Origin: an uncultured Verrucomicrobiales bacterium
Lineage (GTDB): Bacteria > Verrucomicrobiota > Verrucomicrobiia > Verrucomicrobiales > DEV007
Assembly (NCBI GenBank): GCA_937893785.1
Contig: CALCSP010000587.1
Span: forward strand, 1 to 24,689
Direction: 5' to 3'
Length of the DNA: 24,689 nt
Shown here: positions 1-24,508 of the stretch, piece after piece
Layout of the letters: the number at the start of each line of letters is the position of its first letter
Position numbering within the stretch: the first letter of the stretch is position 1
Program-made: the position numbers and the translations under genes
The notes under the pieces: generated by a model
Told to the model about the DNA's origin: nothing
The model's database searches: none
Seen by the model: only the letters and a program-made list of their open reading frames with translations

Positions 1-921
1 AAGCATGAGGGAAGCGAACCTCGTGGAATCTGTCTGGAAGGCCAGATAAACGAGATCATACATGCAACGGATGTATTCCTTTGGATCTTTGTGGGATGCA
101 TCAAGATTAAGACCCTTGGTATCAAGTTGCGGTAACGGCTCGTGTGTCCATTTACTGGTGCGCTCAACACGTTGTTCCAGCGCCCGAATCGATTCAAGAT
201 ACTCCTCGACCTTACCTTGATCTTCCTGGCCAAGGCGAGCTTTAAGACTTCGGCTCTGGTCCATCAACAGGTCGAGAATGCTCGCCTCGCGTTTCAGCCC
301 GGCACGCACTTGCTCGACACCCTTACCGGCGTAGGGATTAAAAAGCCGGCTAAAAATCTCTTGTGGCTTGCTCATGGAGGGAATCGGCCGTCCGGGACCT
401 CGGTGGGAAAGCGTCTTGCTTCGCCCGTAGGAACCGGTTCCACCCTCGGTACCCAGAACCATGGACGCAAAACGCGTCTTGTGTCCATGAACGTTGGCAG
501 CAACCTGATCGATGGAAATACTGTTCGTCTTCTGGCTACCGACCATGTCCGCACCCGTGGCAAAGACATCACCCGAACTGTGCCCGCCCAGAGACCAGCC
601 GCCGGCATGATCCAAACCGCGGTAGTAACTCACGTAGTCTTTGAGCGGCTCAAAGGGTTTGGCGGATTGATTAAAGCTAAGCGGACCAGCATCCCGGCAA
701 GGCCACCAGCTCCAATCGTGGTGCGGCTTGTTAGGGGTTGGAACGCCAGCTGAACCATTGGGCATATAGGCACCGTAAGAAAAATAACTCACAAGCATCC
801 GCTTCGGAATCACCTTGGAAGGCGCCGCCAACCCCATACTATTTAACAGCGGCAGAGCCAAAGCAATACCACCACCCTTTAGCATTTCACGTCGATTCAG
901 ATGCCAGCTTTTCGGTTTCAT
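1..921 (-). CDS. DUF1552 (HXXSHH-family) protein with Tat-like signal; 3' end runs off the left edge of the window (not in the ORF track)
   Basis: Hand translation of the minus strand from ATG at 921 is open to base 1 (307 codons): MKPKSWHLNRREMLKGGGIALALPLLNSMGWAA...MPNG...GLDHAGG...NSISIDQVAA...SILDLLMDQSRSLKARLGQEDQGKVEEYLESIRALEQRV...DLVYLAFQTDSTRFASLML. The RRxxLKG..ALALPxLxSM start, SISIDQVAA, the KVEEYLESIRxLE helix and LAFQTDSTR are typical DUF1552 motifs. It starts 12 nt after the stop of 934..3447. Confidence 0.9.
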   Translation of the reverse strand, partial: MKPKSWHLNRREMLKGGGIALALPLLNSMGLAAPSKVIPKRMLVSYFSYGAYMPNGSAGVPTPNKPHHDWSWWPCRDAGPLSFNQSAKPFEPLKDYVSYYRGLDHAGGWSLGGHSSGDVFATGADMVGSQKTNSISIDQVAANVHGHKTRFASMVLGTEGGTGSYGRSKTLSHRGPGRPIPSMSKPQEIFSRLFNPYAGKGVEQVRAGLKREASILDLLMDQSRSLKARLGQEDQGKVEEYLESIRALEQRVERTSKWTHEPLPQLDTKGLNLDASHKDPKEYIRCMYDLVYLAFQTDSTRFASLML

Positions 922-933
922 AATGATTCGCTT

Positions 934-3447
934 TTAATTATCCTCTGTTCCCTTGAATATATTACTCTGACAGATATTGATAATCATGTCGAGTAATCGA
1001 TAGCCATTCGTGGCGCAATCGGCAAGCAGTGCATCGACCACAAAACGATCGTGCAAGGTAAGTTCGCGGCCAATGCCATAGGTGAGCAAACGTCGCAAAA
1101 TATTTTCAGCAACGTCATTTTTGCGATGCTCGATAAGATACGCTTTCAGCTCAGGCATCCCGTCAACTTCCGGCCCATTTGGAACACGCGCAAAAGCCTC
1201 CACCTTTTCAGTATTGATGGTTTTAAGATAGGCCGCGTAACCGGCAAGATCTCCATGGTTTTGTAAATTGAATCCATCAACGCGCGCCCCTTCCTTTGGC
1301 ACTAGCGGCTGATACCTGCCGACAGCATTGTAATGTTCAAAAGGAATACCCCAAGGATCAAGCCTGGCGTGACAATCATTGCAACTTTCTTTCTGCCGAT
1401 GCTTTGCAAGCAAATCCTTTATAGTAAGTGCTTTTTCAGCAGATTCGCCTGCAGTGTCAGTAAGAGCAGGCACGTCGGCAGGTGGCGGTTTTACCTCATC
1501 ACCAAGAATGGCTTCACGCAACCACACTGCCCTATAAATCGGGTGAGGCGCAGATCCCGTGCCGTTGCCAATCAGCATCGAACCATGCGTGAGTAGCCCC
1601 CCCAACTGGTACTCAGGCTTTAAGGAAACGGCACGGAAGTCATTTCCTTGAACACCTGGCACACCGTAGTGCACCGCCAATGGCTGGTTCAGCCAAGCGA
1701 AATCGGAATCTACCAAGTTTTCTGCCCTAGAATTGCGGCGAATCAACTCAGCCACAAAGCCGGTCGTTTCCTCCAGCATATAATCGCGGATGGTTGGACG
1801 ATAAGGCATCTCCGTGCCCCTGCGTTCGCCGGCTGACACGTAATAAAGAAATCGAGGAAACAGCTGACTATTAATTGGCACTGTCTTCATCTTGGCCAGG
1901 CTCAACCACTGCATGGTAAAGTTGCGCACGAAGTTCTTGGACCGCTCATCTGCAAGCATACGACGCACTTGCTGCTCCAACACTTCGGACTCGTTGAGCT
2001 GGTTTTTCTCGGCCAGTTTGAACAATTCGTCATCTGGCATACTTCCCCAGAGGAAATAAGATAACCGTGAGGCCAACTCATACGAGCGCTCTGTCACCTC
2101 GTCATCCGCCACGGTATGGTAAAGAAATTGAGGTGATATCAGTACCATGGCCAATGTCTCCCGCATGGCGGCCTCCATCGTGCTTAATTCAGCCTGTACC
2201 AACTCGTAGATTTGGACAAAGCTATCCACTTCGACCTTGGAAGCCGGCCTACGAAAAGCTCGCGAAACAAAACGCGCGATAACCTCTCTCACATATGCCT
2301 GAGGTTTCTCCTCGCGCAAAGGCGATTCAAACAGGATGCGCCTGTGATGCCCGGGCGGCCATATGTCAGCGACAGGTGACTCAAATTCCATCCAATTGAT
2401 CACGACACGCGGCATAGTCAGGTTGCGATTGCCGTCATTGAGAGTGCCATCATCATACAAAACCTGTGGCGTGATAACTCGACTATCTGGCTGCTGATTT
2501 CCACGAATGACCCGCCCACGCTCAAGTGGGAAATTTTCAATACGCCCGCGAAACTCGTATACCTTCGGGTCATCAATACCGTTCACTAAATAGGCGCCAC
2601 CCACTGGTTTTACACGCTGAGTAGCGCTGTTGATCTGAATGGTCTGGCCAAGTAACAAACGCAATGGTGCCCCCTTCACTCCCGGCGGCAGAATGGCCGA
2701 TGCCTGCACTCGAATAACGAATTCTCCCGTCTCAGGAAAACTTTTTAATCCCATCCCATGCGCCGGTGAGTGACGGCGGTTGCCCCAAACGCCGACCTCG
2801 TCTCTTCCAATACCCCGATCAAGTCCATACGGCTGCCACTCGCGCCGAACCTTGTGAACCTCGGGTTTAATAGGATCGACGATGGTGCTCGCCATGATCT
2901 TACGGGCATTTTCCAAATACCGGTCCACTTGCTCCGGGCCCAGTAACATAAACTCGGCAGTATTATTAAAGTGGTAAGGCTTTTCCGGATCCTTTGGCAG
3001 GTTATCTTTTAAATCGAGCTGGAACCCGATCAAATCACGAATCGTATTCTCATACTCGAAATTAGTCAGCCGCCGCGCCTGCGGTGCAACCGTTTTGTTT
3101 CTGGCCTTAGTGACCACATTTCGCAACTCTGTATCTATCCATTCCGATACAGCCAGCACTTCCTGCTTGGTTGGACGTACCACTTCCTCTTCAGGTGGCA
3201 TTTCTCCAGTCTTCAGCACATCCAGAATCAACTCCCACTGCTCCAAACTCTGTTCTTCAGCCAAGTTGCCATCAAGTTCATGCAAGGTCACCTTACCCTT
3301 GGCCTTCTTTTGACCGTGGCATTTTACGCAATTGGCTTTGAAAAAAGGCGCTACTATCGAATCAAAGCCTACCGTGCCCTTCGGCACAGCATTGACTGGA
3401 AGCCCTAAGCTGAATAGGGCGATTACCACCACCCACCAAAACGTCAT
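934..3447 (-). CDS. Exported di-heme DUF1592/DUF1588-family protein (Planctomycete cytochrome c + PSD3/PSD5/PSD4/PSCyt3/PSD2-type domains)
   Basis: Hydrophobic signal peptide. CVKCH (3316-3330) and CNDCH (1369-1383) heme-binding motifs. RRLTNFEYENTIRDL (PSD3-like), RAFRRP (PSD5-like), YELASRLSYFLWGSMPDDEL (PSD4-like), GGLLTHGSML...RAVWLREAILG (PSCyt3-like), LLTYGIGREL (PSD2-like). ATGA overlap with the upstream stop. Confidence 0.9.
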   Translation of the reverse strand: MTFWWVVVIALFSLGLPVNAVPKGTVGFDSIVAPFFKANCVKCHGQKKAKGKVTLHELDGNLAEEQSLEQWELILDVLKTGEMPPEEEVVRPTKQEVLAVSEWIDTELRNVVTKARNKTVAPQARRLTNFEYENTIRDLIGFQLDLKDNLPKDPEKPYHFNNTAEFMLLGPEQVDRYLENARKIMASTIVDPIKPEVHKVRREWQPYGLDRGIGRDEVGVWGNRRHSPAHGMGLKSFPETGEFVIRVQASAILPPGVKGAPLRLLLGQTIQINSATQRVKPVGGAYLVNGIDDPKVYEFRGRIENFPLERGRVIRGNQQPDSRVITPQVLYDDGTLNDGNRNLTMPRVVINWMEFESPVADIWPPGHHRRILFESPLREEKPQAYVREVIARFVSRAFRRPASKVEVDSFVQIYELVQAELSTMEAAMRETLAMVLISPQFLYHTVADDEVTERSYELASRLSYFLWGSMPDDELFKLAEKNQLNESEVLEQQVRRMLADERSKNFVRNFTMQWLSLAKMKTVPINSQLFPRFLYYVSAGERRGTEMPYRPTIRDYMLEETTGFVAELIRRNSRAENLVDSDFAWLNQPLAVHYGVPGVQGNDFRAVSLKPEYQLGGLLTHGSMLIGNGTGSAPHPIYRAVWLREAILGDEVKPPPADVPALTDTAGESAEKALTIKDLLAKHRQKESCNDCHARLDPWGIPFEHYNAVGRYQPLVPKEGARVDGFNLQNHGDLAGYAAYLKTINTEKVEAFARVPNGPEVDGMPELKAYLIEHRKNDVAENILRRLLTYGIGRELTLHDRFVVDALLADCATNGYRLLDMIINICQSNIFKGTEDN

Positions 3448-4847
3448 ACCTTTAAGAAATGCTTAATCGGGCCGGTCTGCCCATGCCCGAACTTATTGAG
3501 GCCCGTATCGAGCGCTCCGTAGTGCTCAATGGGGTTTCCATAGGCATTAAGCAATGTCGTGTAGAAATTGCCAAGGGTGCTATGGCCAATTTGCCCGTAA
3601 TTCGGCAGTCGGATGTAGCGGCGCCGGAGGTCAACGCGTGCGTTGTTACCTGAAAGAATGATAAAAGGATATTCCCAACCATGACTATGGTGTGTCTCGC
3701 CACCATCAGGAAAATAAAAGAGCATTGTATTGTCAAACATTGTTCCTGTTCCCTCGGGCACACTCTTGAGTCGCTTCACAATACGATCGACTAATGTCAT
3801 GTGATGCGTGCGCGCGAGTTCACGTATGGTCTCGGCATCAAGGCCACCTATACTCTTGTTGTGACCGACATCGTGCATATTCACCTTCTCACCCTCGATG
3901 CCTGGAATGCCGGTATAGCGGTGACCGAGTTCATCCACAGTAAAGGCAACAACATTGGTAAGGCCAGAAATCAGTGCACCGAGCAACACTTCACTGTGAC
4001 CAATCTGCCGGTTAAAAGTATTGACCGCAGGATCAAGATATTTAGCATCAAGTTGGGGCACGTGCTTACGAATGGTATCCGCCATGGCATCAATCTTCCG
4101 GTTACGCTCACGTATCGTCTCCACGGAGTCCGCATAGTTCTGCACCTTGGCCTTCTCAATTCCGGACAATGAATTAGCAATACCCCCTTCGTTGTTGGAG
4201 ATGAATTCAAGCACCTTGCGATCAAGTTGATACTGAGTGCGCGCCTTTGAATCATTGGAAACAGATTTAAAGAGCTCTTGTAAAGCGACACGAGGTGAAC
4301 CAAAGGCATAATTAGGCTGCTGCGCTCCTCGGGCTGAAAACCCCGTAGCTACACCATCAAGGCTGCCTCTGGCATTGCCTCCGCCGAGCGGGAAGCAGGC
4401 CAATTCGATGTGACCTACTGGTGAAGGAAACAACTTGGCCAACTCGAAATCAACCGTTGCCCACTTGATTGAGCTGAGACGCTCGTTGGCCTTAAAAACA
4501 CCGAGCGACGAGCACCACGAATGGTGCCCAGTTGTGCACATCTTTCCCGAAAGCCCCTGCAAAATGGTTAAATTTTCCCGGTGTGCGGACAGCGGCGCAA
4601 GCCACTTGGGCAAATCGTGCCCATCCAAATCGACATCAAGCGCCTCCTTACGCTTCTCGAGATCCATTGACTTAGCATCAAGACTTGGCGGAACACACAC
4701 TTTTGGCCACAGGCCATTACCACGGTGCATGAAGATGAAGCGTGTCGGCGGCTTGGACAAGGTTGCGGAAAGCTGAGATGGATTCAGCACAGCCAATGCT
4801 CCAGCACTCAATAGTGACTGCTTTAAAAAATCTCGACGGTTGTTCAT
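3444..4847 (-). CDS. DUF1552-family protein with Tat signal
   Basis: N-terminus MNNRRDFLK is a near-consensus twin-arginine motif. LTILQGLS, AKVQNYADSVETIRE helix, HDVGHN in the place of HxxSHH, GTMFDNTMLFYFPDGGETHH. ATGA-coupled to both neighbours. Confidence 0.88.
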   Translation of the reverse strand: MNNRRDFLKQSLLSAGALAVLNPSQLSATLSKPPTRFIFMHRGNGLWPKVCVPPSLDAKSMDLEKRKEALDVDLDGHDLPKWLAPLSAHRENLTILQGLSGKMCTTGHHSWCSSLGVFKANERLSSIKWATVDFELAKLFPSPVGHIELACFPLGGGNARGSLDGVATGFSARGAQQPNYAFGSPRVALQELFKSVSNDSKARTQYQLDRKVLEFISNNEGGIANSLSGIEKAKVQNYADSVETIRERNRKIDAMADTIRKHVPQLDAKYLDPAVNTFNRQIGHSEVLLGALISGLTNVVAFTVDELGHRYTGIPGIEGEKVNMHDVGHNKSIGGLDAETIRELARTHHMTLVDRIVKRLKSVPEGTGTMFDNTMLFYFPDGGETHHSHGWEYPFIILSGNNARVDLRRRYIRLPNYGQIGHSTLGNFYTTLLNAYGNPIEHYGALDTGLNKFGHGQTGPIKHFLKV

Positions 4848-7378
4848 AGTTGCTGCCTAGTTGGTTTACGATACCGGAATGATTCGGATGTTAAAAGGGA
4901 AACAATGACCGATTTAAAACTACCTCCATTTTGAAGATAAGCACGGTCTGCATCAATAAGGGTTTGCGAATCGGAAAGCATTTCGTTGCGACCCATGTAA
5001 AAGCGAAAAGCGTGCCGAATAATACTCTGGCGCACCCGATCGGATTTGGAAAGACGATCGATCAGATCAAAGGGGTCCGTAACATTACCGTCCAAGGCGG
5101 GATCGCCAGTACCCACCAGTTCACCGAGCGTACTGACAAGCTTTGTCTTATAGGTGGTAGCACCGTTCTTCTTCCTGGGACCCGCAAGAATATGTTCCTC
5201 GTGCTCCAACGGTTCTTGAAGGCGGTAGCGGCCAAAATCATCAAATACCTCAAATGGCAACCCTAGCGGATTCATTTGTTGATGACACTTAATACATTCG
5301 GCCTTCAGCGTCACCGCCTCGACTCTTTCCCGAAATGTTTTGTGCGGGTCTTCCGGAACCTGTGCGTCAACGGTGATTGGTATATCAGGAACACGTCCAG
5401 CAAGAAGTTTTTCTCGAATCCAACGCCCACGCTTGATTGGATCGGTATGAAAATTGGAGGAATGAGCGATAAGCCACGCCGGATGAGTCAGTAATCCTTT
5501 GCGGTTCTGAATCGGGAAGGGTTGTGCGACGGGGTAATCCCAAAACTTTACGTCATCCAGACCCTTGTGGTTTTTGTGTTCTACTCCACCGTAACGGAAA
5601 GGGTTTGGTGTCGGCGGGAGGCTGTAAAAAACAGAGTGGTTATAGTGGTATCCATGCGCAAAAGAAGGTGTAGTAAACGGCGTTCGCCCCTTGCCGATTG
5701 TCTCCCCCCAGAAATGCATATAGCGCATGAATTCGCGTTTGGATTTAGCTCCTGAGACACGAACAGTTTTCTTTGTATTTAGATATTCCAGATTCTCCTC
5801 AATTACCTTCTCTGGATTCGCCTTCCAGTCCTTGTCCTTGAAATGGTGATAAACTTCAGTCCATTCCTCAATAACTTTACGACCAGTTTCATTGTCTTTG
5901 TCATGGTAAACAAAAAAATCTTCCGTATTGAGCAGTCGCTGGAAAACCTCCTGATCCTGCTGAAGGTGTCGGTCCACAATACGGTCAGCCTCCTTTACCA
6001 GAAAACCGGGAGTGCCAGCAGTACCTCGAGATGGATTTTGCCAATAACCATCGCTGCGCGGCACATCTTTGAAGATTTTAATAGCGTTAGGGTATCCAAA
6101 AAACTCCCGAAAAAACCGCACCTGTTTCGGATGCACGCTTTCATGTGAGCGCATATTTTTGCCGTTCAGACTGGGATCCACTGGACCCGCAAACCAGGTT
6201 TGATTTGCTAGCAGCCGCGTTACCTCGCGCTGGAAATCCTCCTTCGTGGAAAGCTTGCCAGTTTCAGCCGCCTGCCGGAGAATCTCATCAGGTCCACGAT
6301 CCCCTAGCGCATAGGCAATTGCATTGGCAGCCTCTCGCGGAGCAAGCTTTTTTCTTCCGTATTCGTCAATTGGCCCATCACCAAACTCCATTCGATAAAG
6401 AAATTCGGATTCCAGTAGCACCGTTGTGAGCATCTGCTGCAGCCCCGCGATATTACCCCCTAACTCGATGGAAGAACGCAACAGAGACAAATATTTTTCT
6501 ATCTCCCGGTTTGTTGCTTTTCTTTGAAGGACACAGTCGAACTGATATTCAATCGCTGATATCATCTCTAATTCACTCGGCACCCCATCCTTAAGCACAA
6601 TCACCTCCAGTGCTGGTGGAGTTTCTCTGGGATACCATCGATCTTGGGTATTCAGCGCTGCCAACAACTCAGCCTTTCTGGGTGTCTTGAGTTGCGCTGC
6701 GAAGATCTGTTTCTCAGCAATCCACTTAGCATTACTAAGCATCACTAGTAAATGCCCACCATCAAGAGTGGTTAGATCATAGTCACGCACCCCAGAATGA
6801 TCGGGTAACATAAAGGGGTTAGTAACACCGTGAAACTTCCGTGTTACAAAACTCGACCGCTCGCGACCATCCAGACGGAATACATCCATTACTCGCTGAT
6901 GAAAGATCTGCGGACTTACCAACCAACGACGCGCAGGTGACCACGCCTTGGCGCTCACTCCACCACTAAAAAGCTTATCGTGATCAACATAGTTTCCATA
7001 ACCTGGATAGCGCAGCTTTTCCTCCAGCTTGGAAGCGTTGTGTTTGAGCAACTCATTACGCACCCATTCGCTTAGCAGTTGCTGTTCAGCTTCACTTGGT
7101 TGCTCCTTTTTCTTAGGTGGCATTTCTTTCAAGAACAACTGCTCCTGAACCCGGTTTAATACATCCAGGCGTGCATCCAAATCCATGGCCGCCAGATTAT
7201 CCAGACGCACATCGCCTTTCTGAGAATCTTGCCCATGGCAATCAAAACAATGTGCCTCCATGACAGCACCTACCTTTAAAGAAATCGCAAAGGAATTATT
7301 CGCAACCACCCCACTGTTGCAGACCGCAAACCACATTATGGCTACGGAACAGATTACAAAGGGATTCATTCTTATCAT
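4844..7378 (-). CDS. Exported di-heme DUF1588/DUF1592-like protein (divergent subfamily)
   Basis: Signal peptide. CFDCH (7235-7249) and CIKCH (5282-5296). KEMPPKK after the first heme site, GLLTHPAWL...DPIKRGRWIREKLL...CIKCHQQMNPLGLPFEVFDDFGRYR (PSCyt3-like), AFRFYMGRN...SFKSVIVSLLTSESF (PSD2-like). Confidence 0.88.
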   Translation of the reverse strand: MIRMNPFVICSVAIMWFAVCNSGVVANNSFAISLKVGAVMEAHCFDCHGQDSQKGDVRLDNLAAMDLDARLDVLNRVQEQLFLKEMPPKKKEQPSEAEQQLLSEWVRNELLKHNASKLEEKLRYPGYGNYVDHDKLFSGGVSAKAWSPARRWLVSPQIFHQRVMDVFRLDGRERSSFVTRKFHGVTNPFMLPDHSGVRDYDLTTLDGGHLLVMLSNAKWIAEKQIFAAQLKTPRKAELLAALNTQDRWYPRETPPALEVIVLKDGVPSELEMISAIEYQFDCVLQRKATNREIEKYLSLLRSSIELGGNIAGLQQMLTTVLLESEFLYRMEFGDGPIDEYGRKKLAPREAANAIAYALGDRGPDEILRQAAETGKLSTKEDFQREVTRLLANQTWFAGPVDPSLNGKNMRSHESVHPKQVRFFREFFGYPNAIKIFKDVPRSDGYWQNPSRGTAGTPGFLVKEADRIVDRHLQQDQEVFQRLLNTEDFFVYHDKDNETGRKVIEEWTEVYHHFKDKDWKANPEKVIEENLEYLNTKKTVRVSGAKSKREFMRYMHFWGETIGKGRTPFTTPSFAHGYHYNHSVFYSLPPTPNPFRYGGVEHKNHKGLDDVKFWDYPVAQPFPIQNRKGLLTHPAWLIAHSSNFHTDPIKRGRWIREKLLAGRVPDIPITVDAQVPEDPHKTFRERVEAVTLKAECIKCHQQMNPLGLPFEVFDDFGRYRLQEPLEHEEHILAGPRKKNGATTYKTKLVSTLGELVGTGDPALDGNVTDPFDLIDRLSKSDRVRQSIIRHAFRFYMGRNEMLSDSQTLIDADRAYLQNGGSFKSVIVSLLTSESFRYRKPTRQQL

Positions 7379-10245
7379 TGTAAGAGTTTTGCTAACTTTA
7401 CCGCAACGCCCTTCATGCTCTTAGGCCATTGATCAAATGTCACGGTCTTAGCTCCTGGAATATCAGGCACGGTAATGCCTTCGACAAGGGATTTGGCAGG
7501 TTGCGCATAGAGGAACTGTAAATTCTTCTGGTCGTATGTACGAGACAAACTATTGGCGTAGATCTCCATCTCCGCGGCGTACTCCTCGGGGCGTTCACCG
7601 ATATTGCTTTCTGAGGGAATCCATATGACACCCGCTACGCCCATGGGAGTAAGCGGACTCACACACCAGTTGTAAGCATAGGTTGGAATTGTATCCTGAG
7701 ACACCACTTCTCCCTTACCCGGTTCGGGAAATGCCGGGGCCTGCAAGGCAAAAGTAGAGGCATCCGCCCCCTGTTTGGTTGATTCCTGAATGGCTCGCAC
7801 AAAGGCGTTTACTTCAGCGAGATGCCTCGATACTGCTTTGCGTGCCACCGACGTGTCTGGATACTGAAGGAACAATTCTTCCAGTCGCGCCTTAAAGGCC
7901 GAATTTTGACTATCGCGGACTCCGGCGAAGGACGTCCAGGATAATGGCGAGGCAAACTGCCGATTACGCCCTCCTTGGCCCGAGGACATGGTGATAAATC
8001 CCTGTGGAACACCCTGGCGGTCAATGGTCTTTGCAAATTCGTAAGCAAACATTGTCACTCCCCTTCCCTCTTGGGAGAAATCCGCACTCAACCAGTGGGA
8101 TCGATATTTGCCACTGCCCGTCTCAAAACGACGCTTTCTTGGGGTGGGAAAACTGCTGGCTTTGGTCTTCCTGCAAAACTCTCTGACCAGCGGCATGGCC
8201 TTAGGCAACTCTACCTCCTTGTTGCGACGGTCATAAGCCCACTCTGAAGTGAGCAGCGTGCTTCCCGTCAAGTACCAGACATCTCCGATAAGAATATCCC
8301 TGACTACGCGGTTGAACCCATGACTGGATTTGACCTCCAGGCTGATCGGCTTAGTCGAGGCCTTCCTTGGCGGAAAGGTCACTGACCATTGTTCCAGGTT
8401 ATTAGGCTCAACAGTCTGAGTCATCCCATCAAAGGCAACCGTCACCTTGACACCTCTATTGGCATGCCCCCAGACTTTAATTGGCTGATTACGCTGCAAA
8501 ATGACACCATCACGGTAATACTCTGCCACCTGCAGGATCGGATAATTGGGATCAGTCCAGCGCGCATACTTTGCCTTTAAAGCGGCGGCTTTTTCCAGAT
8601 CGTCCTCCTCAAAAATGAACTTGTTATCAATCGCGGCAAAGGGTGTCGCCGGCAATCCGGCCTTGTTATAAAGGTTGGAGTTCTCCGGCACGGCACTGTA
8701 AGCATATTGAACGCCTGTAGGCAAAGGCACCTTCTCGGAGGTTACCTCCACAACATCCCCCACGATTCTAGCCTCCGCCGGATGCCACTTCCTATCCTTG
8801 CCACATAACCGGAAGTGATTAAGCCTGGCATCAGGGGTGGGTATAGCTGGCTCAACGAATTTTCCTGGCTCCCTACGGTCCTTGGCCATGCCCTTACTGC
8901 CGACCATCAATCCACCAAAAAGGCTTTCCTTCTCGAAGGAAACCTTCACCTTACGGCCACTCACTGTGTATCCACTATATATGGGCCCCGTGTATGCAAT
9001 CTGCTTGCCATATTGCTTGGCCAAAGCCCACCTGGCCATCCTCATGCCTGGATGTAGCTTATTGTAATAATGGATACCCCCGGGGTTGGCCGAGTTAATA
9101 TCGGATTGCACCACCATGCCCACATTCTCCCGGTTGTTTGCAAAGAAAACGTGCTGAACCTGACGAATGTCGGCAAAGCCGACGTTATTTGGGTCCGGTG
9201 AACCATAGGGTTGCATCTGCGTAAAATAAAAAGGCATATCCGGCATTTCCCATGCATCACGCCATCCCCGAACTAAAGCTTCCATCCTTGAAGCATAAAT
9301 TCTGCCATCCCCGCTGTTACTCGTTCCTTGGCACCAAATGGCACCACGAATCGCATAAGGAATGACAGGGGCAATCTTTCCATTAAAGAACTGTGAGGGA
9401 CCGCGCCACATACCCGCAATCCCCGGAAGCTTGGGCCGGGCGGGCACCTTCCCGCCTTTCTCAGCTGCATGGCCAGCCACATCCTGCCATACCTTCAGGT
9501 CAGCGTAGTATTGATCGAAAGCCTTGCGTCCCTGGTCAGTCAGTGGATCCGCATCGTGAATGAGGTCCTTGTCCTCCTGAAGTTTCTGGTGCTCTTCGAT
9601 CGCCTCACGCTGAGTGAAAGCTTCAATGCGTGTATTACTATGTGCACTGAGAAGAATACCTATCGGCACCTTCAACTCTCTGTAGAGTTCGTGTGCAAAA
9701 GCAAGGGAAAGGGCGGAGAATCCGCCGGCTGCAGTTGACTTCTTCCAGCCTTCCTCTGATGTGGCCTTCTTTTGTGGATAGAGGGCAGAAACAGTATTGA
9801 TGTTAATCTCCCTGATGGGCACTTCTACTTTGGATGCAGCAATTTCTCGAGCCAGCTCGTTGCACATGCTTTTTCCCGCTACCCATACCATGTTGGACTG
9901 GCCGGATGAGAACCATACCTCACCGACAAGCACACCTTTAAGCGAGATCGATTTTCCTTGATCGTTCTTCACCTCAATAACACGTTCATTCCCGGATGCC
10001 TTCAGTGGAGCGAGTTTGACCATCCAGTCACCTTTGGTATCTGCTACAACTGACTTGGTTTGACCAGCAAACTCAACTGTCACCCTATTGCCCGGTTTAT
10101 CAAAACCCCAAACGGGAACGGCCTGCTCGCGCTGCAAGACCATGTTGTCAGTGAAGGGTGCGGCTAGGTCAAGTTTTCCAAACCCAATCGTAGGAATCAA
10201 GGCCTGCAATAAAGCAGTCAGAATAAAAAATAATGTTTTTTTCAT
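7375..10245 (-). CDS. Secreted two-module sialate O-acetylesterase-like (SASA/SGNH) protein; module 1 has catalytic motifs, module 2 is degenerate
   Basis: Signal peptide. FTDNMVLQREQAVPVWG, GEVWFSSGQSNM (Ser codon 9895-9897), IRGAIWCQGTSN, IHYYNK, VQYAYS...LYNKAGLPATPF. The pattern repeats from about 8535 (YRDGVILQRNQPIKVWG, GDVWYLTGSTLL, VAGVIWIPSESN). Confidence 0.88.
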   Translation of the reverse strand: MKKTLFFILTALLQALIPTIGFGKLDLAAPFTDNMVLQREQAVPVWGFDKPGNRVTVEFAGQTKSVVADTKGDWMVKLAPLKASGNERVIEVKNDQGKSISLKGVLVGEVWFSSGQSNMVWVAGKSMCNELAREIAASKVEVPIREININTVSALYPQKKATSEEGWKKSTAAGGFSALSLAFAHELYRELKVPIGILLSAHSNTRIEAFTQREAIEEHQKLQEDKDLIHDADPLTDQGRKAFDQYYADLKVWQDVAGHAAEKGGKVPARPKLPGIAGMWRGPSQFFNGKIAPVIPYAIRGAIWCQGTSNSGDGRIYASRMEALVRGWRDAWEMPDMPFYFTQMQPYGSPDPNNVGFADIRQVQHVFFANNRENVGMVVQSDINSANPGGIHYYNKLHPGMRMARWALAKQYGKQIAYTGPIYSGYTVSGRKVKVSFEKESLFGGLMVGSKGMAKDRREPGKFVEPAIPTPDARLNHFRLCGKDRKWHPAEARIVGDVVEVTSEKVPLPTGVQYAYSAVPENSNLYNKAGLPATPFAAIDNKFIFEEDDLEKAAALKAKYARWTDPNYPILQVAEYYRDGVILQRNQPIKVWGHANRGVKVTVAFDGMTQTVEPNNLEQWSVTFPPRKASTKPISLEVKSSHGFNRVVRDILIGDVWYLTGSTLLTSEWAYDRRNKEVELPKAMPLVREFCRKTKASSFPTPRKRRFETGSGKYRSHWLSADFSQEGRGVTMFAYEFAKTIDRQGVPQGFITMSSGQGGRNRQFASPLSWTSFAGVRDSQNSAFKARLEELFLQYPDTSVARKAVSRHLAEVNAFVRAIQESTKQGADASTFALQAPAFPEPGKGEVVSQDTIPTYAYNWCVSPLTPMGVAGVIWIPSESNIGERPEEYAAEMEIYANSLSRTYDQKNLQFLYAQPAKSLVEGITVPDIPGAKTVTFDQWPKSMKGVAVKLAKLLQ

Positions 10246-14863: not shown

Positions 14864-16297
14864 ATGCACCTAAAACTCATACATCTGATTCTCCTGCTCA
14901 TAGGTTGTTCATCCGCATTACAGGCAGCAAAGCCCAATGTGCTCTTTATCGCCATTGATGATTTAAATGACTGGATCGGCGCCCTTGAAGGCCATCCCCA
15001 GGCACATACCCCACACTTGGACAAACTGGCTAAGCGTGGCGTTCTCTTTACCCGTGCATACTGCGCTGCACCCTCATGCAACCCTTCCCGGGCTGCACTG
15101 ATGACCGGTATTCTCCCTTCCACCAGCGGAGTCTACCACAATTCGCACCCGTGGCGAGTGGCGCTGCCGAAGGCAGTAACCTTACCTCAGCACTTCACTG
15201 CACATGGTTATTGGTCGGCTGGATCAGGAAAAATCTATCATGGCCGTTATCCTGATCCTGCCTCATGGCAAACCTATTTCCCTGACCAGAAAAAGAACAA
15301 GCCGGTGGATCCGTTGCCAGCAACCCGACCGGTCAACGGCATTCCACAAACAGCACATTTTGACTGGGGACCGGTTTCGAAGCCCGCCAGCGCCATGGGC
15401 GATTACCAAGTAGCTGACTGGATCATTGAGCAGTTAAATCGCGAACATGACAAGCCTTTCTTCCTGGCCTGCGGCATCTATCGCCCGCACCTGCCATGGT
15501 ATGTTCCGCGCAAATATTTTGACCTGTTCAAGGAAAGCGAAATCCAACTGCCTGCGGTCATCGAGAAGGATCTCAAGGATGTGCCAGCCGCCGGTATCAA
15601 AATGGCCAAGCCGCAAGGCGACCACGCTAAGGTCAACAAGCATCAACAGTGGAAAAAAGCCGTGCATGGTTACCTAGCTTCCGTTGCATTTGCAGACGAG
15701 CAGGTGGGGCGTGTGCTCTCAGCCCTTGAGAAAAGCCCCCATGCTGAAAATACCATCATCGTGCTTTGGACGGACCATGGGTGGCATCTGGGCGAAAAGG
15801 AGCACTGGCGAAAATTCACTTTGTGGGAACGCGCCGGCCGCACGCCGGTTATGTTTGTGGTCCCCAAGGGCATATCCGGGGCACTGACACAAGGGACACG
15901 ATCCGGGATGCGTGTGGATCAACCGGTGGGGCTAATCGATATCTATCCCACGCTCGTTGATCTCTGTGGACTGGGCGAAAACAAGGCATTGGAAGGACAA
16001 AGCCTAGTACCCTTACTGGCTGATCCAACATCAAAACGGGATCGACCGGCACTCACCACCTATGGACGTAATAACCATGCCCTGCGAACCACCCAGTGGC
16101 GCTACATCCGATATGCCGATGGATCCGAGGAACTTTATGATCACAAAAAAGATCCCAATGAATGGAGCAACCTTGCCAACAAGCCAAAATATGCGCAACT
16201 GAAGAAGGAGTTGGCCAGATGGTTTCCGAAAACAAACGCTCCCTCTGCCAAGGAATCAAAAAAAAGAAAAAGCCAAAAAAACAATAGTCGCAGTTAA
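14864..16297 (+). CDS. Secreted formylglycine-dependent (S1) sulfatase, iduronate-2-sulfatase/choline-sulfatase-like
   Basis: Signal peptide. KPNVLFIAIDDLND, CNPSR (15077-15091) in YCAAPSCNPSRAALMTG, GKIYH, PFFLACGIYRPHLPW, WTDHGWHLGEKEHWRKFTLWE, ELYDHKKDPNEWSNLA. Confidence 0.93.
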   Translation: MHLKLIHLILLLIGCSSALQAAKPNVLFIAIDDLNDWIGALEGHPQAHTPHLDKLAKRGVLFTRAYCAAPSCNPSRAALMTGILPSTSGVYHNSHPWRVALPKAVTLPQHFTAHGYWSAGSGKIYHGRYPDPASWQTYFPDQKKNKPVDPLPATRPVNGIPQTAHFDWGPVSKPASAMGDYQVADWIIEQLNREHDKPFFLACGIYRPHLPWYVPRKYFDLFKESEIQLPAVIEKDLKDVPAAGIKMAKPQGDHAKVNKHQQWKKAVHGYLASVAFADEQVGRVLSALEKSPHAENTIIVLWTDHGWHLGEKEHWRKFTLWERAGRTPVMFVVPKGISGALTQGTRSGMRVDQPVGLIDIYPTLVDLCGLGENKALEGQSLVPLLADPTSKRDRPALTTYGRNNHALRTTQWRYIRYADGSEELYDHKKDPNEWSNLANKPKYAQLKKELARWFPKTNAPSAKESKKRKSQKNNSRS

Positions 16298-16313
16298 TCA
16301 AATGGCCTATCCC

Positions 16314-16772
16314 CTATTCCTCAACAGGCTGCACTCCATTGGCATAAACCACGTTGTAGCCGCCATCCTGCGCCCCCTCCTTTGACCATCCGTCATAGGA
16401 ATCACAGGCAAGATAGAAGCGGTAAGTATTACCTTTTTGGGGCTGTGATCCATAGGAACCTCCCCCGGCCGGAACCAGTCCAAATCCTTTCCAATCCCGG
16501 TCGAAGTATCGCACATAAACCAAGCGTTCCGGACCCTTCCCCTTTTCAAGTTCCTCAACCTGCACCTCCGCCACCTTACGGATATATTCATATTTACCCT
16601 CTCGCTCGGTAAAGGAATAGATGGCCTGCACCTTGCCGACCACAACGTGTGTGGCAACTTTCTCTAGTTGCTTTTTAGTATAGGGCGCTTTCTCAGCCTG
16701 CGCCTTATGGCACAAAAAAAGGCCAGTCAATAGGACAGATAAGAGCGTTGTTTTTCGGGTTAGAAGTTTCAT
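16314..16772 (-). CDS. Small secreted hypothetical protein (possible OB/TIMP-like beta fold)
   Basis: Signal peptide ending AQA-E. The beta-rich mature part starts ATHVVVGKV...VAEVQVEELEKG. The ORF track starts at TTG 16775; the ATG at 16772 is the more likely start. The fold is an inference. Confidence 0.7.
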   Translation of the reverse strand: MKLLTRKTTLLSVLLTGLFLCHKAQAEKAPYTKKQLEKVATHVVVGKVQAIYSFTEREGKYEYIRKVAEVQVEELEKGKGPERLVYVRYFDRDWKGFGLVPAGGGSYGSQPQKGNTYRFYLACDSYDGWSKEGAQDGGYNVVYANGVQPVEE

Positions 16773-16957
16773 CAATTTGCGGGGATTTGGTATTTTATTA
16801 GGAATGATTACCTGTAATTCCTATCGGATTATCGAGATGTAAATAACAGGTGATGCACTGCTTATTATGTCACGACGAATAGCCGTCACCATTTATTAGA
16901 TTTTTTTTCACCCCGCAAGCACGCCGGCAAAAATTAATACAATCACATCTTTCATCT

Positions 16958-23288: not shown

Positions 23289-23332
23289 CTAAGTGTTTGC
23301 CATAAGCAAAGCGAAGAGCTTCACTAGCATCA

Positions 23333-24508
23333 ATGAAGCAGAAGAAAGCAAAACGCGTTGCGATAGCCTTGGAGATGGAATGGGGATTTAAGCGTCACTT
23401 GGAAACTTATGCGGGATGCCAACGCTACGCTGACAAAGCGGGGTGGGAATGCTCCATCACTCCGTCAACAGCAAGCTTCTTGGAAACAGAAAATGGGGCA
23501 CCCCCTTTCGATGGTATTCTGGCGCGAACCACAACATCATTAGCCACAACAGCTGATCGTATGAACATACCAGTGGTGAATCTTTGGATGAACTCTCCCG
23601 TCAAGGGGCTACCTAGTGTATTTCCTGAGTTTGATGTTTCTGGAAAAATAGCTGCCGAGCATTTGTTAAATCGCGGATTCAAGCGATTTGGTTACCTAGG
23701 CTTCTCCCGTGACAAGGATGCCGTATCCCAGCTATCCGGTTTTCGTAATCGCCTCAATAAGGAGGGCTTGGATTGCTCAGCCTTCCGCTTTTTGCGTCGG
23801 GGTGCCACAACAACTACAAAAGGATGGAAAAACCTTATTTTGGGTATGGAGAAATGGCTGGCGACTCTTCGCCCTCCAGTGGGTATTTTTGTGGTGAATG
23901 ACCTCTATTGCCGCTACCTGATTGATGTTTGTCGCGCAAAAGGTCTGAGTATTCCGGAAGATCTTGGCATTATCGGAAGCTCTAATGAAGAAACGATATG
24001 TGCCTCACCTAGTCCCACACTCACCAGCATTGACCTAAACTTTGAGAAAGTAGGTTACCGTGCTGCAAAGCTACTCGATCAACTCATGCTCGGAGAAAAA
24101 TGTCCCAGCAACCCAATATTAATACCGCCTAATACCATTGTCCCCCGCCAGTCTACAGACTCCTATGCGGCTGATCACCCGGTTGTTTCTCGAGCCTTAC
24201 GATTCATTTCAGAAAATGCCCACAAACCTATCAAGGTCAATGATGTCGCAAATAAAACCGGGATCAACCGACGTAGCCTTGAACGCCAGTTTCACCAATC
24301 GCTCAACAAAAGTGTGGCAGGAGAAATCACGCGACTAAGGATTGCCAGGGTGAAACGTCACCTGATCGAGTCAACCTCCCCTCTAAAAACCGTTGCTAGG
24401 GAATGTGGGTTCCGTAACGCTGACCATCTCTACAAGGTTTTTACGCGTATTGAAAAAATCACTCCATCCCAATACCGGAACCAACTAAGTAATCAGGGAA
24501 TCGCCTGA
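23333..24508 (+). CDS. XylR-family transcriptional regulator (LacI-type ligand-binding domain + C-terminal AraC HTH)
   Basis: IAAEHLLNRGFKRFGYLG, RPPVGIFVVND, IPEDLGIIGSSN, PTLTSID, PPNTIVPRQSTD, then RALRFISENAH...VNDVA...RRSLERQF...LRIARVKRHL...VARECGF...LYKVFTRIEKITPSQYR. The architecture and length match E. coli XylR; the ligand is not inferable. Confidence 0.92.
   Translation: MKQKKAKRVAIALEMEWGFKRHLETYAGCQRYADKAGWECSITPSTASFLETENGAPPFDGILARTTTSLATTADRMNIPVVNLWMNSPVKGLPSVFPEFDVSGKIAAEHLLNRGFKRFGYLGFSRDKDAVSQLSGFRNRLNKEGLDCSAFRFLRRGATTTTKGWKNLILGMEKWLATLRPPVGIFVVNDLYCRYLIDVCRAKGLSIPEDLGIIGSSNEETICASPSPTLTSIDLNFEKVGYRAAKLLDQLMLGEKCPSNPILIPPNTIVPRQSTDSYAADHPVVSRALRFISENAHKPIKVNDVANKTGINRRSLERQFHQSLNKSVAGEITRLRIARVKRHLIESTSPLKTVARECGFRNADHLYKVFTRIEKITPSQYRNQLSNQGIA

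What the first reader, a model, noticed from the sequence alone, without database searches (positions are those of the whole stretch)
1..24508. Candidate uncharacterised regulon: XylR-controlled, fully exported de-acetylation/desulfation machinery fused with DUF6288, YdjY and two di-heme/DUF1552 redox pairs
Seen: almost every large ORF has a Sec or Tat signal. The locus holds five SGNH/SASA domains in four genes, one S1 sulfatase, two CxxCH-x2 proteins each followed by a Tat DUF1552 protein, a PDZ-DUF6288 protein and a YdjY protein. Two independent links (shared operator, shared protein module) join the two gene runs. No transporter or recognisable glycoside hydrolase is in the window. Known: SASA/CE6 enzymes remove O-acetyl groups, S1 sulfatases remove sulfate esters, and DUF1552/DUF1592/DUF6288/YdjY have no assigned function that I know of. 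Inference: this is a sugar-inducible periplasmic or surface system that strips substituents from a sulfated, acetylated glycan (fucoidan-like or a bacterial/algal EPS) and couples this to an oxidative step. That would give a functional context to several unknown families at once.
Basis: partly seen in the sequence, partly recalled or inferred. Interest (0 to 1): 0.78.

Follow-up and report, generated by a model that had tools for sequence, protein, structure and literature searches.

The report
Conserved acetylesterase and DUF6288-barrel regulon
This contig of a marine Verrucomicrobiales bacterium carries a gene cassette, shared by many marine Planctomycetes and Verrucomicrobia, in which one sugar-sensor-type regulator appears to control several exported acetyl-removing enzymes and two unstudied proteins (DUF6288, YdjY), one of which folds like a sugar-cleaving enzyme.

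Summary

**What is new**
- The cassette is not unique to this genome. YdjY, a 1,200-aa DUF6288 protein and several SASA esterases recur together in dozens of PVC genomes. In some genomes these domains are fused into single proteins.
- A 36-bp direct-repeat operator lies next to the XylR-type regulator gene in distant relatives. A matrix built from those sites finds the window's ydjY promoter, which was not used to build it, at 25 bits. The best score in a shuffled genome was 13.6 bits.
- The DUF6288 core models as an (alpha/alpha)6 barrel, with Z about 20 to GH76, GH88 and GH105. The "missing glycoside hydrolase" is therefore probably this protein.

**What is not supported**
- Desulfation: the genome has at least 134 sulfatase ORFs, so one sulfatase in this window is what chance predicts.
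- An oxidative step: it is untested, and DUF1552 looks weakly like a sulfatase/phosphatase-superfamily hydrolase instead.

The haem-protein/DUF1552 pairs are specific but optional partners of the cassette. The substrate is unknown.

This scan had already noted the DUF6288–acetylesterase link on other DNA (e1-4248539, e1-976369). The regulon, the YdjY link and the chance status of the sulfatase are added here.

The parts
23333..24508 (+). XylR-type regulator (periplasmic-binding-protein-like sensor domain plus AraC-type HTH). It is the only copy detected in the MAG.
   Evidence: Pfam Peripla_BP_3 6e-32, HTH_18 2.5e-19. Single genome hit. Orthologues sit next to the cassette in L005, L010-L012, L036, L040, L045, L056, L058 and L063.
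23253..23288 (-). Operator copy 2: two direct half-sites (CGCAA-A-rich) with a 21-bp period, between xylR and SASA354, 65 nt upstream of the SASA354 ATG.
   Evidence: Near-identical 36-bp element in the regulator-divergent regions of L011, L012, L045, L056 and L058. Matrix score 53.7 bits.
22124..23188 (-). SASA354: exported minimal SASA/SGNH acetylesterase.
   Evidence: PF03629 1e-16. GQSNM at residue 50. Invariant His in alignment A7.
20525..21958 (-). SASA477: the esterase core with a PA14-like beta insert after the nucleophile block.
   Evidence: PF03629 3e-16, PA14 2.7e-4. The insert is visible in A7.
20257..20448 (-). 63-aa hydrophobic open frame between SASA477 and SASA842. It is unannotated and its coding status is unproven.
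17713..20241 (-). SASA842: esterase core, PA14-like insert and a C-terminal module (residues 549-830, nt 17752-18597) shared with the DUF6288 protein. The gene is a clean presence/absence polymorphism.
   Evidence: PF03629 5.6e-15. Module match E 3e-42. Window 17704-20214 is missing from the otherwise colinear relative L005, whose DUF6288 protein is 96% identical. Orthologues of 753-759 aa are in L008-L011.
16314..17625 (-). Three small genes of unknown role: exported orf153 (16314-16775) and two small membrane proteins (16958-17281, 17311-17625).
   Evidence: No credible family hit. Conserved in L005 and L017.
14864..16297 (+). S1 sulfatase, transcribed divergently from ydjY. It may share the operator region but is not a conserved member of the cassette.
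   Evidence: PF00884 2e-44. CNPSR at residue 72. Association with the cassette is at chance level.
14733..14768 (-). Operator copy 1, 62 nt upstream of the ydjY ATG, in the same orientation as copy 2.
   Evidence: 25.4 bits with a matrix that did not include it; shuffled-genome maximum 13.6. Equivalent sites lie upstream of ydjY in L005, L014, L016, L017 and L080.
13916..14671 (-). YdjY-domain protein: exported, with invariant Cys, His and Glu residues, translationally coupled to the next gene.
   Evidence: NF040466 2e-35. The model matches only the E. coli YdjY model P76220 (E 1e-7). Invariant columns in A2.
10311..13919 (-). 1,202-aa exported protein. Domains in order: PDZ; (alpha/alpha)6 barrel = DUF6288 (residues about 145-442, nt 12594-13487); HEAT repeats; helical linker plus galactose-binding-like beta-sandwich (residues 777-1052, nt 10764-11591); C-terminal beta domain.
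   Evidence: Pfam. AlphaFold model pLDDT 92.3. Barrel Z 20.5 to GH76 and 19.8 to GH88. Sandwich resembles a 'GH2 sugar-binding domain' protein, E 1.3e-8. Full-length homologues of 57-96% identity across PVC phyla.
7375..10245 (-). SASA956: a two-module esterase. Module 1 carries GQSNM; module 2 has lost that motif.
   Evidence: PF03629. Internal repeat E 5e-24. Orthologues follow DUF6288 in many loci.
4844..7378 (-). PSCyt_b: exported protein with two CxxCH motifs and PSCyt1, PSD5, PSD4, PSCyt3 and PSD2 domains.
   Evidence: Orthologue-level hits lie next to the cassette in L005-L007, L021 and L040.
3444..4847 (-). DUF1552_b: Tat-exported partner of PSCyt_b.
   Evidence: PF07586 2e-26, TIGR01409. 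Profile match to sulfatases at 73% probability, E 3e-5.
934..3447 (-). PSCyt_a: second protein with two CxxCH motifs and a full set of PSD domains.
   Evidence: Orthologue-level hits are in L018, L040, L046, L058, L076 and L083.
1..921 (-). DUF1552_a: the N-terminal 307 aa with an RR motif. The gene runs off the contig end.
   Evidence: PF07586 1e-64. The full gene encodes 451 aa in L005.

Best explanation
The window is one regulon. A XylR-type activator/sensor binds a 36-bp direct-repeat operator placed the same way in front of two transcription units, ydjY-to-DUF1552 and SASA354 onwards.

The conserved, horizontally mobile core is an exported cassette with three components:
- YdjY.
- A 1,200-aa protein built of PDZ, an (alpha/alpha)6 barrel, HEAT repeats and a sugar-binding-like sandwich (the DUF6288 protein).
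- Three to five SASA O-acetylesterases.

The most likely mechanism has these steps:
1. An oligosaccharide or sugar signal switches on the regulator.
2. The esterases strip O-acetyl groups from an acetylated glycan in the periplasm or at the cell surface.
3. The sandwich module shared by the barrel protein and one esterase holds both on the same polymer.
4. The DUF6288 barrel then cleaves or isomerises the exposed sugar.
5. YdjY assists in a way that is still unknown.

The two haem-protein/DUF1552 pairs are lineage-specific add-ons. They are probably Tat-exported metallohydrolase-like enzymes, each with a haem-binding partner. The sulfatase is a neighbour of the kind expected by chance.

Shown: gene content, conservation, fusions, the operator footprint and the folds.
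Inferred: regulator-operator binding, esterase activity, catalysis by the barrel, and the substrate.
For: **Operator**
- It is conserved in the regulator-divergent regions of loci whose DUF6288 proteins are only 66-78% identical to the window's.
- A matrix from six such sites scores the untrained ydjY site at 25.4 bits, against a shuffled-genome maximum of 13.6.
- All 14 hits in 1.44 Mb of related loci point in the operon direction. The non-training hits lie upstream of ydjY (L005, L014, L016, L017, L080), upstream of DUF6288 (L034), next to the regulator gene (L040) or at a contig end (L016).

**Synteny**
- Expectations below are gene densities in this genome.
- YdjY is present in 12 of 24 fully flanked loci, against 0.6% expected (p 1e-20).
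- SASA is present in 15 of 24, against 12% expected (p 8e-9).
- The regulator is present in 3 of 24 (p 5e-4).
- The YdjY-plus-SASA context is spread throughout the DUF6288 tree.

**Fusions**
- DUF6288 with SASA in P0238, weaker in P0191.
- YdjY with SASA in a single 1,252-aa open frame in L076.
- YdjY with squalene-cyclase-type barrels in the ESM Atlas.

**Folds**
- Barrel Z 20.5, 19.8 and 19.3 to GH76, GH88 and GH105, over 273-295 aligned residues.
- Sugar-binding-like sandwich.

**Other**
- The esterases keep the Ser and His.
- 4-nt gene overlaps in operon 1.
Against: - No biochemical or expression data exist. No listed RNA run holds the locus.
- The barrel has no sequence-level match to any CAZy-type Pfam family or solved structure.
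- The same fold also serves epimerases, terpene cyclases and binding proteins.
- No catalytic residues could be assigned.
- About a third of DUF6288 loci lack SASA and about 45% lack YdjY. One clade has neither.
- No recurrent classical glycoside hydrolase, lyase or transporter accompanies the cassette, so the pathway is incomplete.
- PDZ and HEAT domains would also fit a scaffold role.
- SASA842, which carries the shared module, is dispensable in the closest relative, L005 (DUF6288 protein 96% identical).
Confidence: 0.6

Rival explanations
1. One reading: the system strips both acetate and sulfate from a fucoidan-like sulfated glycan and couples this to an oxidative step carried out by the di-haem/DUF1552 pairs.
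For: - A sulfatase is divergent from ydjY and shares the operator region, here and in L005 and L017.
- Sulfatases and SASA genes are both enriched near PSCyt/DUF1552 genes genome-wide (odds ratios 5.5 and 16.5).
- He et al. 2017 (PMC5615132) proposed a carbohydrate role for PSCyt genes that lie next to sulfatases.
- Scan note e1-976369 reports DUF6288 copies in a fucose-glycan island.
Against: - The sulfatase frequency near DUF6288 equals the density expectation (p 0.57).
- The position directly upstream of ydjY is not significantly enriched for sulfatases (p 0.10).
- The cassette occurs without sulfatase or PSCyt pairs in L009-L011.
- No fucosidase or other fucoidan marker is in the window.
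- DUF1552 resembles hydrolases of the sulfatase superfamily, not oxidoreductases.
Confidence: 0.15
2. The DUF6288 protein is a non-catalytic periplasmic scaffold or glycan-binding platform (PDZ plus HEAT plus a barrel used for binding) that organises the esterases. The cassette only de-acetylates, and cleavage happens elsewhere.
For: - It has PDZ and HEAT protein-interaction domains.
- (alpha/alpha)6 barrels also act as binders, for example intrinsic factor, haptocorrin and complement TED among the matches.
- Very high conservation over the whole length, 79% mean column identity, fits many interaction surfaces.
- No catalytic residues were identified.
Against: - The barrel holds dense invariant polar clusters of His, Glu, Asp and Arg, as in the HGHTGGG block, typical of active sites.
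- The best fold matches are enzymes, with Z about 20.
- The domain occurs fused to esterases in giant multi-enzyme proteins.
Confidence: 0.15
3. The cassette acts on a non-nutrient or non-glycan target. Examples are remodelling of the cell's own O-acetylated envelope polymer or exopolysaccharide, or action on an acetylated terpenoid or lipid, with the barrel working like a cyclase or LanC-type enzyme.
For: - Terpene cyclases and squalene-hopene cyclase are among the fold matches (Z 17-18.5).
- YdjY is fused to squalene-cyclase-type domains in some Atlas clusters.
- No sugar transporter or catabolic genes are nearby.
Against: - A sugar-sensor-type regulator controls it.
- It carries a sugar-binding-like sandwich and PA14-like inserts.
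- SASA is a carbohydrate esterase family.
- Neighbours in other genomes include BNR sialidase-like, ThuA, GFO/IDH/MocA and 3-keto-disaccharide hydrolase genes.
Confidence: 0.07
4. Chance juxtaposition of abundant paralogue families in a sulfatase-rich PVC genome, with no functional unit.
For: Sulfatases (at least 134 ORFs) and PSCyt/DUF1552 pairs (about 40) are so common that any 25-kb window is likely to hold some.
Against: - The YdjY, DUF6288, SASA and regulator association is conserved across phyla.
- Fusions of these domains exist.
- The two promoters share an operator.
- Orthologue-level PSCyt pairs recur next to the cassette.
Confidence: 0.03

Closest known systems
AraC/XylS-family sugar regulators with a periplasmic-binding-protein-like sensor (E. 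coli XylR type; own knowledge of the family)
   Same: Same two-domain architecture. The gene is divergent from its target operon. The operator consists of direct repeats with a 21-bp period placed just upstream of the target promoter, as at AraC I1-I2.
   Different: No NCBIfam equivalog reaches its cut-off. The operator sequence and target genes are unrelated to xyl genes. The ligand is unknown.
Polysaccharide-utilisation gene clusters of marine PVC bacteria, e.g. the fucoidan loci of Lentimonas sp. CC4 (Sichert et al. 2020, recalled from memory, not read here)
   Same: Exported esterases and sulfatases clustered under a local regulator in a sulfatase-rich marine verrucomicrobium.
   Different: No recognised glycoside hydrolase or lyase family, no fucosidase and no transporter is present. 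The cluster is built around DUF6288 and YdjY, and the sulfatase association is at chance level.
Six-hairpin (alpha/alpha)6 enzymes: GH76 alpha-1,6-mannanases, GH88/GH105 unsaturated uronyl hydrolases, cellobiose/N-acylglucosamine 2-epimerases
   Same: The fold of DUF6288 residues about 145-442 matches with Z 18-20.5 over 270-295 aligned residues.
   Different: There is no detectable sequence similarity. The catalytic residues are not mapped. The domain is embedded between PDZ and HEAT domains, an arrangement not known for those families.
SASA/SGNH sialate or glycan O-acetylesterases (PF03629; E. coli NanS type)
   Same: HMM matches above the cut-off. The GQSNM nucleophile block, the GN(R)S/AL block and an invariant His are present.
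   Different: Unusual accretions are present: a PA14-like insert, a C-terminal sandwich module shared with DUF6288, and a degenerate second module. The substrates are untested.
'Planctomycete-specific' cytochrome c proteins paired with DUF1552 (He et al. 2017, PMC5615132; the domains were first defined in Rhodopirellula baltica)
   Same: Same domain sets and the same pairing with an unknown Tat-exported partner. The published note that such genes sit beside sulfatases and may act in carbohydrate use is reproduced here.
   Different: Here the pairs are translationally coupled behind an esterase in a regulated operon. A link to SASA esterases (odds ratio 16.5) and a weak DUF1552-sulfatase profile match are added.

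Membership tests
SASA / SGNH carbohydrate esterase (PF03629) | HMM score above the curated cut-off | tested here: met
   50-62 bits against a cut-off of 24.8 for all four genes.
SASA / SGNH carbohydrate esterase (PF03629) | Nucleophile Ser in the GQSN block and a catalytic His near the C-terminus of the core | tested here: met
   GQSNM at residues 115, 60, 49 and 50. His is invariant in the HY..N block of A7. Module 2 of SASA956 lacks GQSNM.
SASA / SGNH carbohydrate esterase (PF03629) | Esterase activity on O-acetylated sugars | not testable with these tools
   Needs an enzyme assay.
S1 formylglycine sulfatase (PF00884) | HMM above the cut-off and the C-x-P-x-R maturation motif | tested here: met
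   152.5 bits. CNPSR at residue 72.
XylR-type regulator (PBP-like sensor plus AraC HTH) | Two-domain architecture | tested here: met
   Peripla_BP_3 at residues 108-275, HTH_18 at residues 306-384.
XylR-type regulator (PBP-like sensor plus AraC HTH) | Orthology to XylR, or xylose as the ligand | tested here: not met
   No NCBIfam equivalog comes near its cut-off (best 65 bits against 400). The targets are not xyl genes. The protein is therefore XylR-like in build only.
XylR-type regulator (PBP-like sensor plus AraC HTH) | Binds the shared operator | tested here: inconclusive
   A strong phylogenetic footprint and the genomic specificity of the motif support it. Physical binding was not tested.
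Six-hairpin glycosidase-like (alpha/alpha)6 enzymes | (alpha/alpha)6 barrel fold | tested here: met
   Z 20.5 to 5m77_B, 19.8 to 1vd5_A and 19.3 to 4xuv_B on a model with pLDDT 92.
Six-hairpin glycosidase-like (alpha/alpha)6 enzymes | Sequence-level membership of a named GH family | tested here: not met
   Only 2 of 39 members give a weak GH127 hit (E 0.14). There are no PDB sequence hits to the barrel.
Six-hairpin glycosidase-like (alpha/alpha)6 enzymes | Catalytic acid/base residues in the barrel centre | not testable with these tools
   Invariant E221, D228, H369 and R409 exist, but no residue-level structural superposition was available.
YdjY domain family (NF040466 / PF27149) | HMM above the cut-off and the same fold as E. 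coli YdjY | tested here: met
   122 bits against a cut-off of 50. Foldseek E 1e-7, TM 0.53/0.59 to P76220. TM 0.81 to the Atlas YdjY cluster.
PSCyt / PSD 'planctomycete cytochrome' proteins | PSCyt1, PSD and PSCyt3 domain set with haem-binding CxxCH motifs | tested here: met
   Domains. CxxCH at residues 40 and 689 in one protein and at 44 and 695 in the other. Haem attachment itself was not tested.
DUF1552 (PF07586, 'HXXSHH') | HMM above the cut-off, with a Tat signal | tested here: met
   219 and 94 bits against a cut-off of 30. RR motifs are present and TIGR01409 hits. The literal HxxSHH string was not found in either copy; copy a is truncated.
Alkaline-phosphatase/sulfatase superfamily (for DUF1552) | Profile-level homology to a member family | tested here: inconclusive
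   hhalign against sulfatases gives 73% probability, E 3e-5, over 91 columns. The nearest other family by Atlas features is DUF1501, at 0.83, which is a lead only.
Bacteroidota-type PUL | SusC/SusD pair or another dedicated transporter in the locus | tested here: not met
   No transporter family appears in any ORF of the window.

The most novel reading that the evidence does not exclude
DUF6288 is the catalytic domain of an undescribed carbohydrate-active enzyme family that works with YdjY as a cofactor or partner subunit. Together with a dedicated set of acetylesterases, it lets cosmopolitan marine Verrucomicrobia and Planctomycetes attack heavily O-acetylated marine glycans, for example the acylated heteropolysaccharide fraction of dissolved organic matter or acetylated algal or bacterial exopolymers. 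The PSCyt/DUF1552 pairs would then be haem-linked, Tat-exported metallohydrolases that remove a further substituent. That would give a first function to a gene family present in dozens of copies per PVC genome.
Probability: 0.3. Interest if true: 0.8.

Novelty: new variant of a known kind. Interest (0 to 1): 0.6.

Why it matters
Marine Verrucomicrobia and Planctomycetes are major degraders of complex algal and microbial glycans, yet much of their exported proteome consists of domains of unknown function.

This work gives three such families (DUF6288, YdjY and, more loosely, PSCyt/DUF1552) a concrete, testable setting:
- a conserved and horizontally shared cassette;
- a defined regulator and a defined 36-bp operator;
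- acetylesterase partners;
- a confident structural model that points to a six-hairpin enzyme.

The locus occurs in seawater metagenomes from ten studies, so the activity is likely to be ecologically widespread. The work also warns against reading the ubiquitous sulfatases of these genomes as pathway members on adjacency alone.

Tried and rejected
- **YdjY fold.** No solved relative was found. Foldseek against the PDB gave nothing below E 0.6, and the best VIA-wide match was Z 5.7 to DUF371, which is below a meaningful level.
- **Whole-model Foldseek of the DUF6288 protein.** It returned only generic HEAT/ARM repeat matches. The ESM Atlas feature and shape searches returned only DUF6288 clusters.
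- **Sequence and profile searches against solved structures.** They found only the PDZ and HEAT parts.
- **Complex prediction** of YdjY with the PDZ-barrel part of the DUF6288 protein gave no verdict (score 0.00). It is not evidence either way.
- **Consensus promoter and terminator scans** found fewer sites than in shuffled sequence and were uninformative.
- **Other operator-like sites** in the genome could not be tied to the system. C695:579-614 (38.6 bits) precedes a 76-aa zinc-ribbon ORF. C378:210-245 (27.2 bits) faces a contig end.
- **Literature.** No paper mentions DUF6288. Papers on YdjY give no function.
- **One call failed** on a size limit and was repeated with a smaller alignment.


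Full report
**1. What the window is**

The window is a complete 24.7-kb contig (C587) of a 3.64-Mb, 828-contig, 79%-complete metagenome-assembled genome. The nearest homologues and the protein tree place it in marine Verrucomicrobiales. Near-identical DNA is present in 20 listed seawater metagenome runs from ten studies.

**2. Check of the observation**

On the minus strand, seven genes run from 14671 down to 1:
- YdjY;
- a 1,202-aa PDZ-DUF6288-HEAT protein;
- a 956-aa two-module SASA esterase;
- a PSCyt/PSD protein with two CxxCH motifs;
- a Tat-DUF1552;
- a second PSCyt protein;
- a second DUF1552, cut by the contig end.

Four of the six junctions in this run are 4-nt overlaps. An S1 sulfatase with the CNPSR motif is divergent from ydjY.

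A second minus-strand run holds three paralogous SASA esterases of 354, 477 and 842 aa, plus small membrane or exported ORFs. It is divergent from a regulator built of a PBP-like sensor and an AraC HTH.

Further checks:
- All four esterase genes carry GQSNM. Alignment A7, which covers the three run-2 paralogues and their homologues, also shows an invariant His.
- The second module of the 956-aa protein is homologous to the first (E 5e-24) but has lost the GQSNM motif.
- N-termini read as Sec or Tat signals.
- The shared protein module is real: 34% identity over 292 residues, E 3e-42.
- No transporter or Pfam glycoside hydrolase is present.

**3. The background matters**

Six-frame searches of the whole MAG find at least 134 sulfatase ORFs, about 40 PSCyt-type ORFs, about 30 DUF1552 ORFs and 20 SASA ORFs. 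YdjY and the regulator are each found only once. One sulfatase per 27 kb means the window's sulfatase is what chance predicts.

Outside the window, SASA ORFs do lie within 5 kb of a PSCyt/DUF1552 gene far more often than other ORFs: 6 of 16 against 63 of 1,641 (odds ratio 16.5, p 1.5e-5). So do sulfatases: 19 of 133 (odds ratio 5.5). The sulfatase part of this was already noted by He et al. 2017 (PMC5615132).

**4. Is the neighbourhood conserved?**

The 1,202-aa protein has more than 1,400 homologues. Full-length relatives are 57-96% identical across Verrucomicrobiota, Planctomycetota (Pirellulaceae, Phycisphaerae) and Victivallales.

Annotated contigs:
- In L005, whose DUF6288 protein is 96% identical, the whole window is syntenic except that SASA842 is missing as a clean indel (window 17704-20214).
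- In L006/L007, whose DUF6288 protein is 80% identical, the order is YdjY, DUF6288, SASA954, PSCyt, DUF1552, SASA.
- Planctomycete loci L008-L011 (the L008 and L009 records are labelled planctomycetal) hold YdjY, DUF6288 and two to four SASA genes. L010 and L011 have the same type of regulator, and L009-L011 have no PSCyt pair or sulfatase.

I then analysed 80 loci from distinct species. In the 24 loci with at least 8 kb on both sides, I compared frequencies with expectations from gene density in this genome:

| Family | Loci with it (of 24) | Expected | p |
|---|---|---|---|
| YdjY | 12 | 0.6% | 1e-20 |
| SASA | 15 | 12% | 8e-9 |
| XylR-type regulator | 3 | 0.6% | 5e-4 |
| PSCyt | 10 | 24% | 0.046 |
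| Sulfatase | 14 | 58% | 0.57 |

A sulfatase lies directly upstream of ydjY in 3 of 28 loci (p 0.10).

Orthologue-level copies of each of the window's two PSCyt proteins recur beside the cassette in different genomes. A separate clade has PSCyt_b and DUF1552_b directly upstream of DUF6288, with neither YdjY nor SASA. The pairs are therefore specific but optional partners.

The DUF6288 tree interleaves the phyla, which suggests horizontal spread. The YdjY-plus-SASA context is distributed throughout the tree.

**5. Fusions**

- P0238 (2,382 aa) joins DUF6288 and a SASA domain (1.5e-21). P0191 does so more weakly.
- One 1,252-aa open frame in L076 joins a YdjY domain (1.9e-38) to a SASA domain.
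- ESM Atlas clusters join YdjY to PQQ propellers and to squalene-cyclase-type alpha/alpha domains.

These are independent of gene order and support a shared function.

**6. The regulon**

Read towards the downstream gene, the regulator-divergent intergenic regions of L011, L012, L045, L056 and L058 and of the window share a 36-bp element. It has two CGCAA-plus-A-rich half-sites 21 bp apart.

A matrix built from these six sites, only one of which comes from this genome, was scanned over the MAG:
- the training site scored 53.7 bits;
- two sites on other contigs scored 38.6 and 27.2 bits;
- the untrained ydjY promoter site at 14733-14768 scored 25.4 bits;
- the maximum in a shuffled genome was 13.6 bits.

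Both window sites have the same orientation and lie 62 and 65 nt upstream of the ydjY and SASA354 start codons.

In 1.44 Mb of related loci the matrix gives 14 hits of at least 16 bits, all in the operon orientation. The non-training hits sit upstream of ydjY (L005, L014, L016, L017, L080), upstream of DUF6288 (L034), beside the regulator gene (L040) or at a contig end (L016).

In L012 the regulator is directly divergent from ydjY. In L045, L056 and L058 it faces a single SASA354-YdjY-DUF6288-SASA956 operon. The window's two runs are therefore a split version of one unit.

Binding itself is inferred, not shown.

**7. What the unknown proteins look like**

*DUF6288 protein.*
- An AlphaFold model of residues 28-1202 has pLDDT 92.3 and pTM 0.86.
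- An exhaustive structural comparison places residues about 145-442 in the (alpha/alpha)6 six-hairpin fold. Matches: GH76 mannanases Z 20.5, GH88 19.8, GH105 19.3, cellobiose 2-epimerase 19.1 and sulfoquinovose isomerase 18.1, each over about 270-295 aligned residues.
- There is no sequence-level link to any of these families. The conserved polar residues could not be superposed, so hydrolase, lyase, isomerase and binding roles all remain open.
- The module shared with SASA842 contains a beta-sandwich resembling a 'GH2 sugar-binding domain' protein (E 1.3e-8, TM 0.71 by hit). It also resembles the C-terminus of an annotated sialate O-acetylesterase.

*YdjY.*
- The model (pLDDT 79.7) matches only the E. 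coli YdjY model and has no solved relative.
- It carries invariant Cys, His and Glu residues.

*DUF1552.*
- Its profile aligns with a sulfatase profile at 73% probability (E 3e-5, 91 columns).
- Its nearest other family by language-model features is DUF1501 (score 0.83, a lead only).
- Together with the Tat signal, this suggests a metallohydrolase rather than a redox enzyme.

**8. Interpretation**

The best-supported reading is a sugar-responsive regulon for an exported cassette that processes acetylated glycans:
- the esterases de-acetylate;
- the shared sandwich module holds the enzymes on the polymer;
- the DUF6288 barrel is the likely sugar-acting enzyme;
- YdjY is an obligate-looking but unexplained partner;
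- the PSCyt/DUF1552 pairs are optional extras;
- the sulfatase is a bystander or at most a facultative member.

They are weighed in their own sections.

**9. Novelty and earlier notes**

No paper mentions DUF6288. PSCyt pairs are published as unexplained.

Within this scan, follow-up e1-4248539 had already reported DUF6288 beside or fused to acetylesterases. Follow-up e1-976369 found DUF6288 copies in a fucose-glycan island, and first-reader note e1-2214558 described a YdjY-DUF6288 trio.

I reached the esterase link independently. This report adds:
- the operator and regulon evidence;
- the YdjY statistics and fusion;
- the fold assignment with scores;
- the orthologue-level recurrence of the PSCyt pairs;
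- the demonstration that the sulfatase association is at chance level.

**10. Limits**

- There are no expression or biochemical data.
- Density expectations come from this one incomplete MAG.
- Signal peptides were judged by eye.
- Neighbour detection used profiles seeded from the window's own proteins.
- Several MAG contigs carrying the cassette are labelled as non-PVC phyla and are probably mis-binned.

Noticed in passing
window 17704-20214 vs L005:6048-6052: The whole SASA842 gene is a clean presence/absence difference between this MAG and the relative L005 (DUF6288 protein 96% identical). L005 is otherwise colinear at 91-98% nucleotide identity. The central part of SASA354 (22208-23084) is also too diverged to align.
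   Followed up: partly
G000 C695:579-614 and C378:210-245: Two further strong matches to the operator matrix (38.6 and 27.2 bits) lie elsewhere in the genome. One precedes a 76-aa zinc-ribbon ORF near an MFS transporter and a DUF1501 gene. The other faces a contig end. They may be additional regulon members.
   Followed up: partly
whole genome G000: At least 134 sulfatase-like ORFs are present in a 3.6-Mb, 79%-complete MAG. SASA esterases are strongly linked to PSCyt/DUF1552 genes outside the window: 6 of 16 lie within 5 kb, on contigs C158, C172, C413, C437, C583 and C721.
   Followed up: yes
window 20257-20448 (-): An unannotated 63-aa, very hydrophobic open frame lies in the 283-nt gap between SASA477 and SASA842. 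Two further small membrane ORFs lie at 16958-17625. Their role is unknown.
   Followed up: no
L015, L016, L022, L086 (genome contigs records): Contigs carrying typical PVC copies of the cassette are filed under Actinomycetota, Dehalococcoidia, Myxococcales and Vicinamibacteria MAGs. In the protein tree they nest within Verrucomicrobiales clades, so they are probably mis-binned contigs.
   Followed up: no
L052, L057, L059, L074: An alternative arrangement is PSCyt_b-like, DUF1552_b-like, then DUF6288, with no YdjY or SASA. It occurs in a distinct Akkermansiaceae-type clade and links DUF6288 to the haem/DUF1552 pair independently of the esterases.
   Followed up: partly
ESM Atlas clusters: The YdjY domain occurs fused to PQQ-type beta-propellers (Planctomycetota) and to CARDB plus squalene-hopene-cyclase-type alpha/alpha domains (Poribacteria). 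This echoes its pairing with the DUF6288 barrel.
   Followed up: no
L036:2200-4245 and neighbours; L042:2519-7546; L052:18217-19677; L048:12309-14492: Other families recur around DUF6288 in other genomes:
- FGE-sulfatase domain proteins;
- DUF7133-HEAT-cytochrome c giants;
- DUF1501 with PSCyt2/PSD1 pairs;
- GFO/IDH/MocA oxidoreductases;
- BNR sialidase-like proteins.

No classical glycoside hydrolase family recurs.
   Followed up: partly
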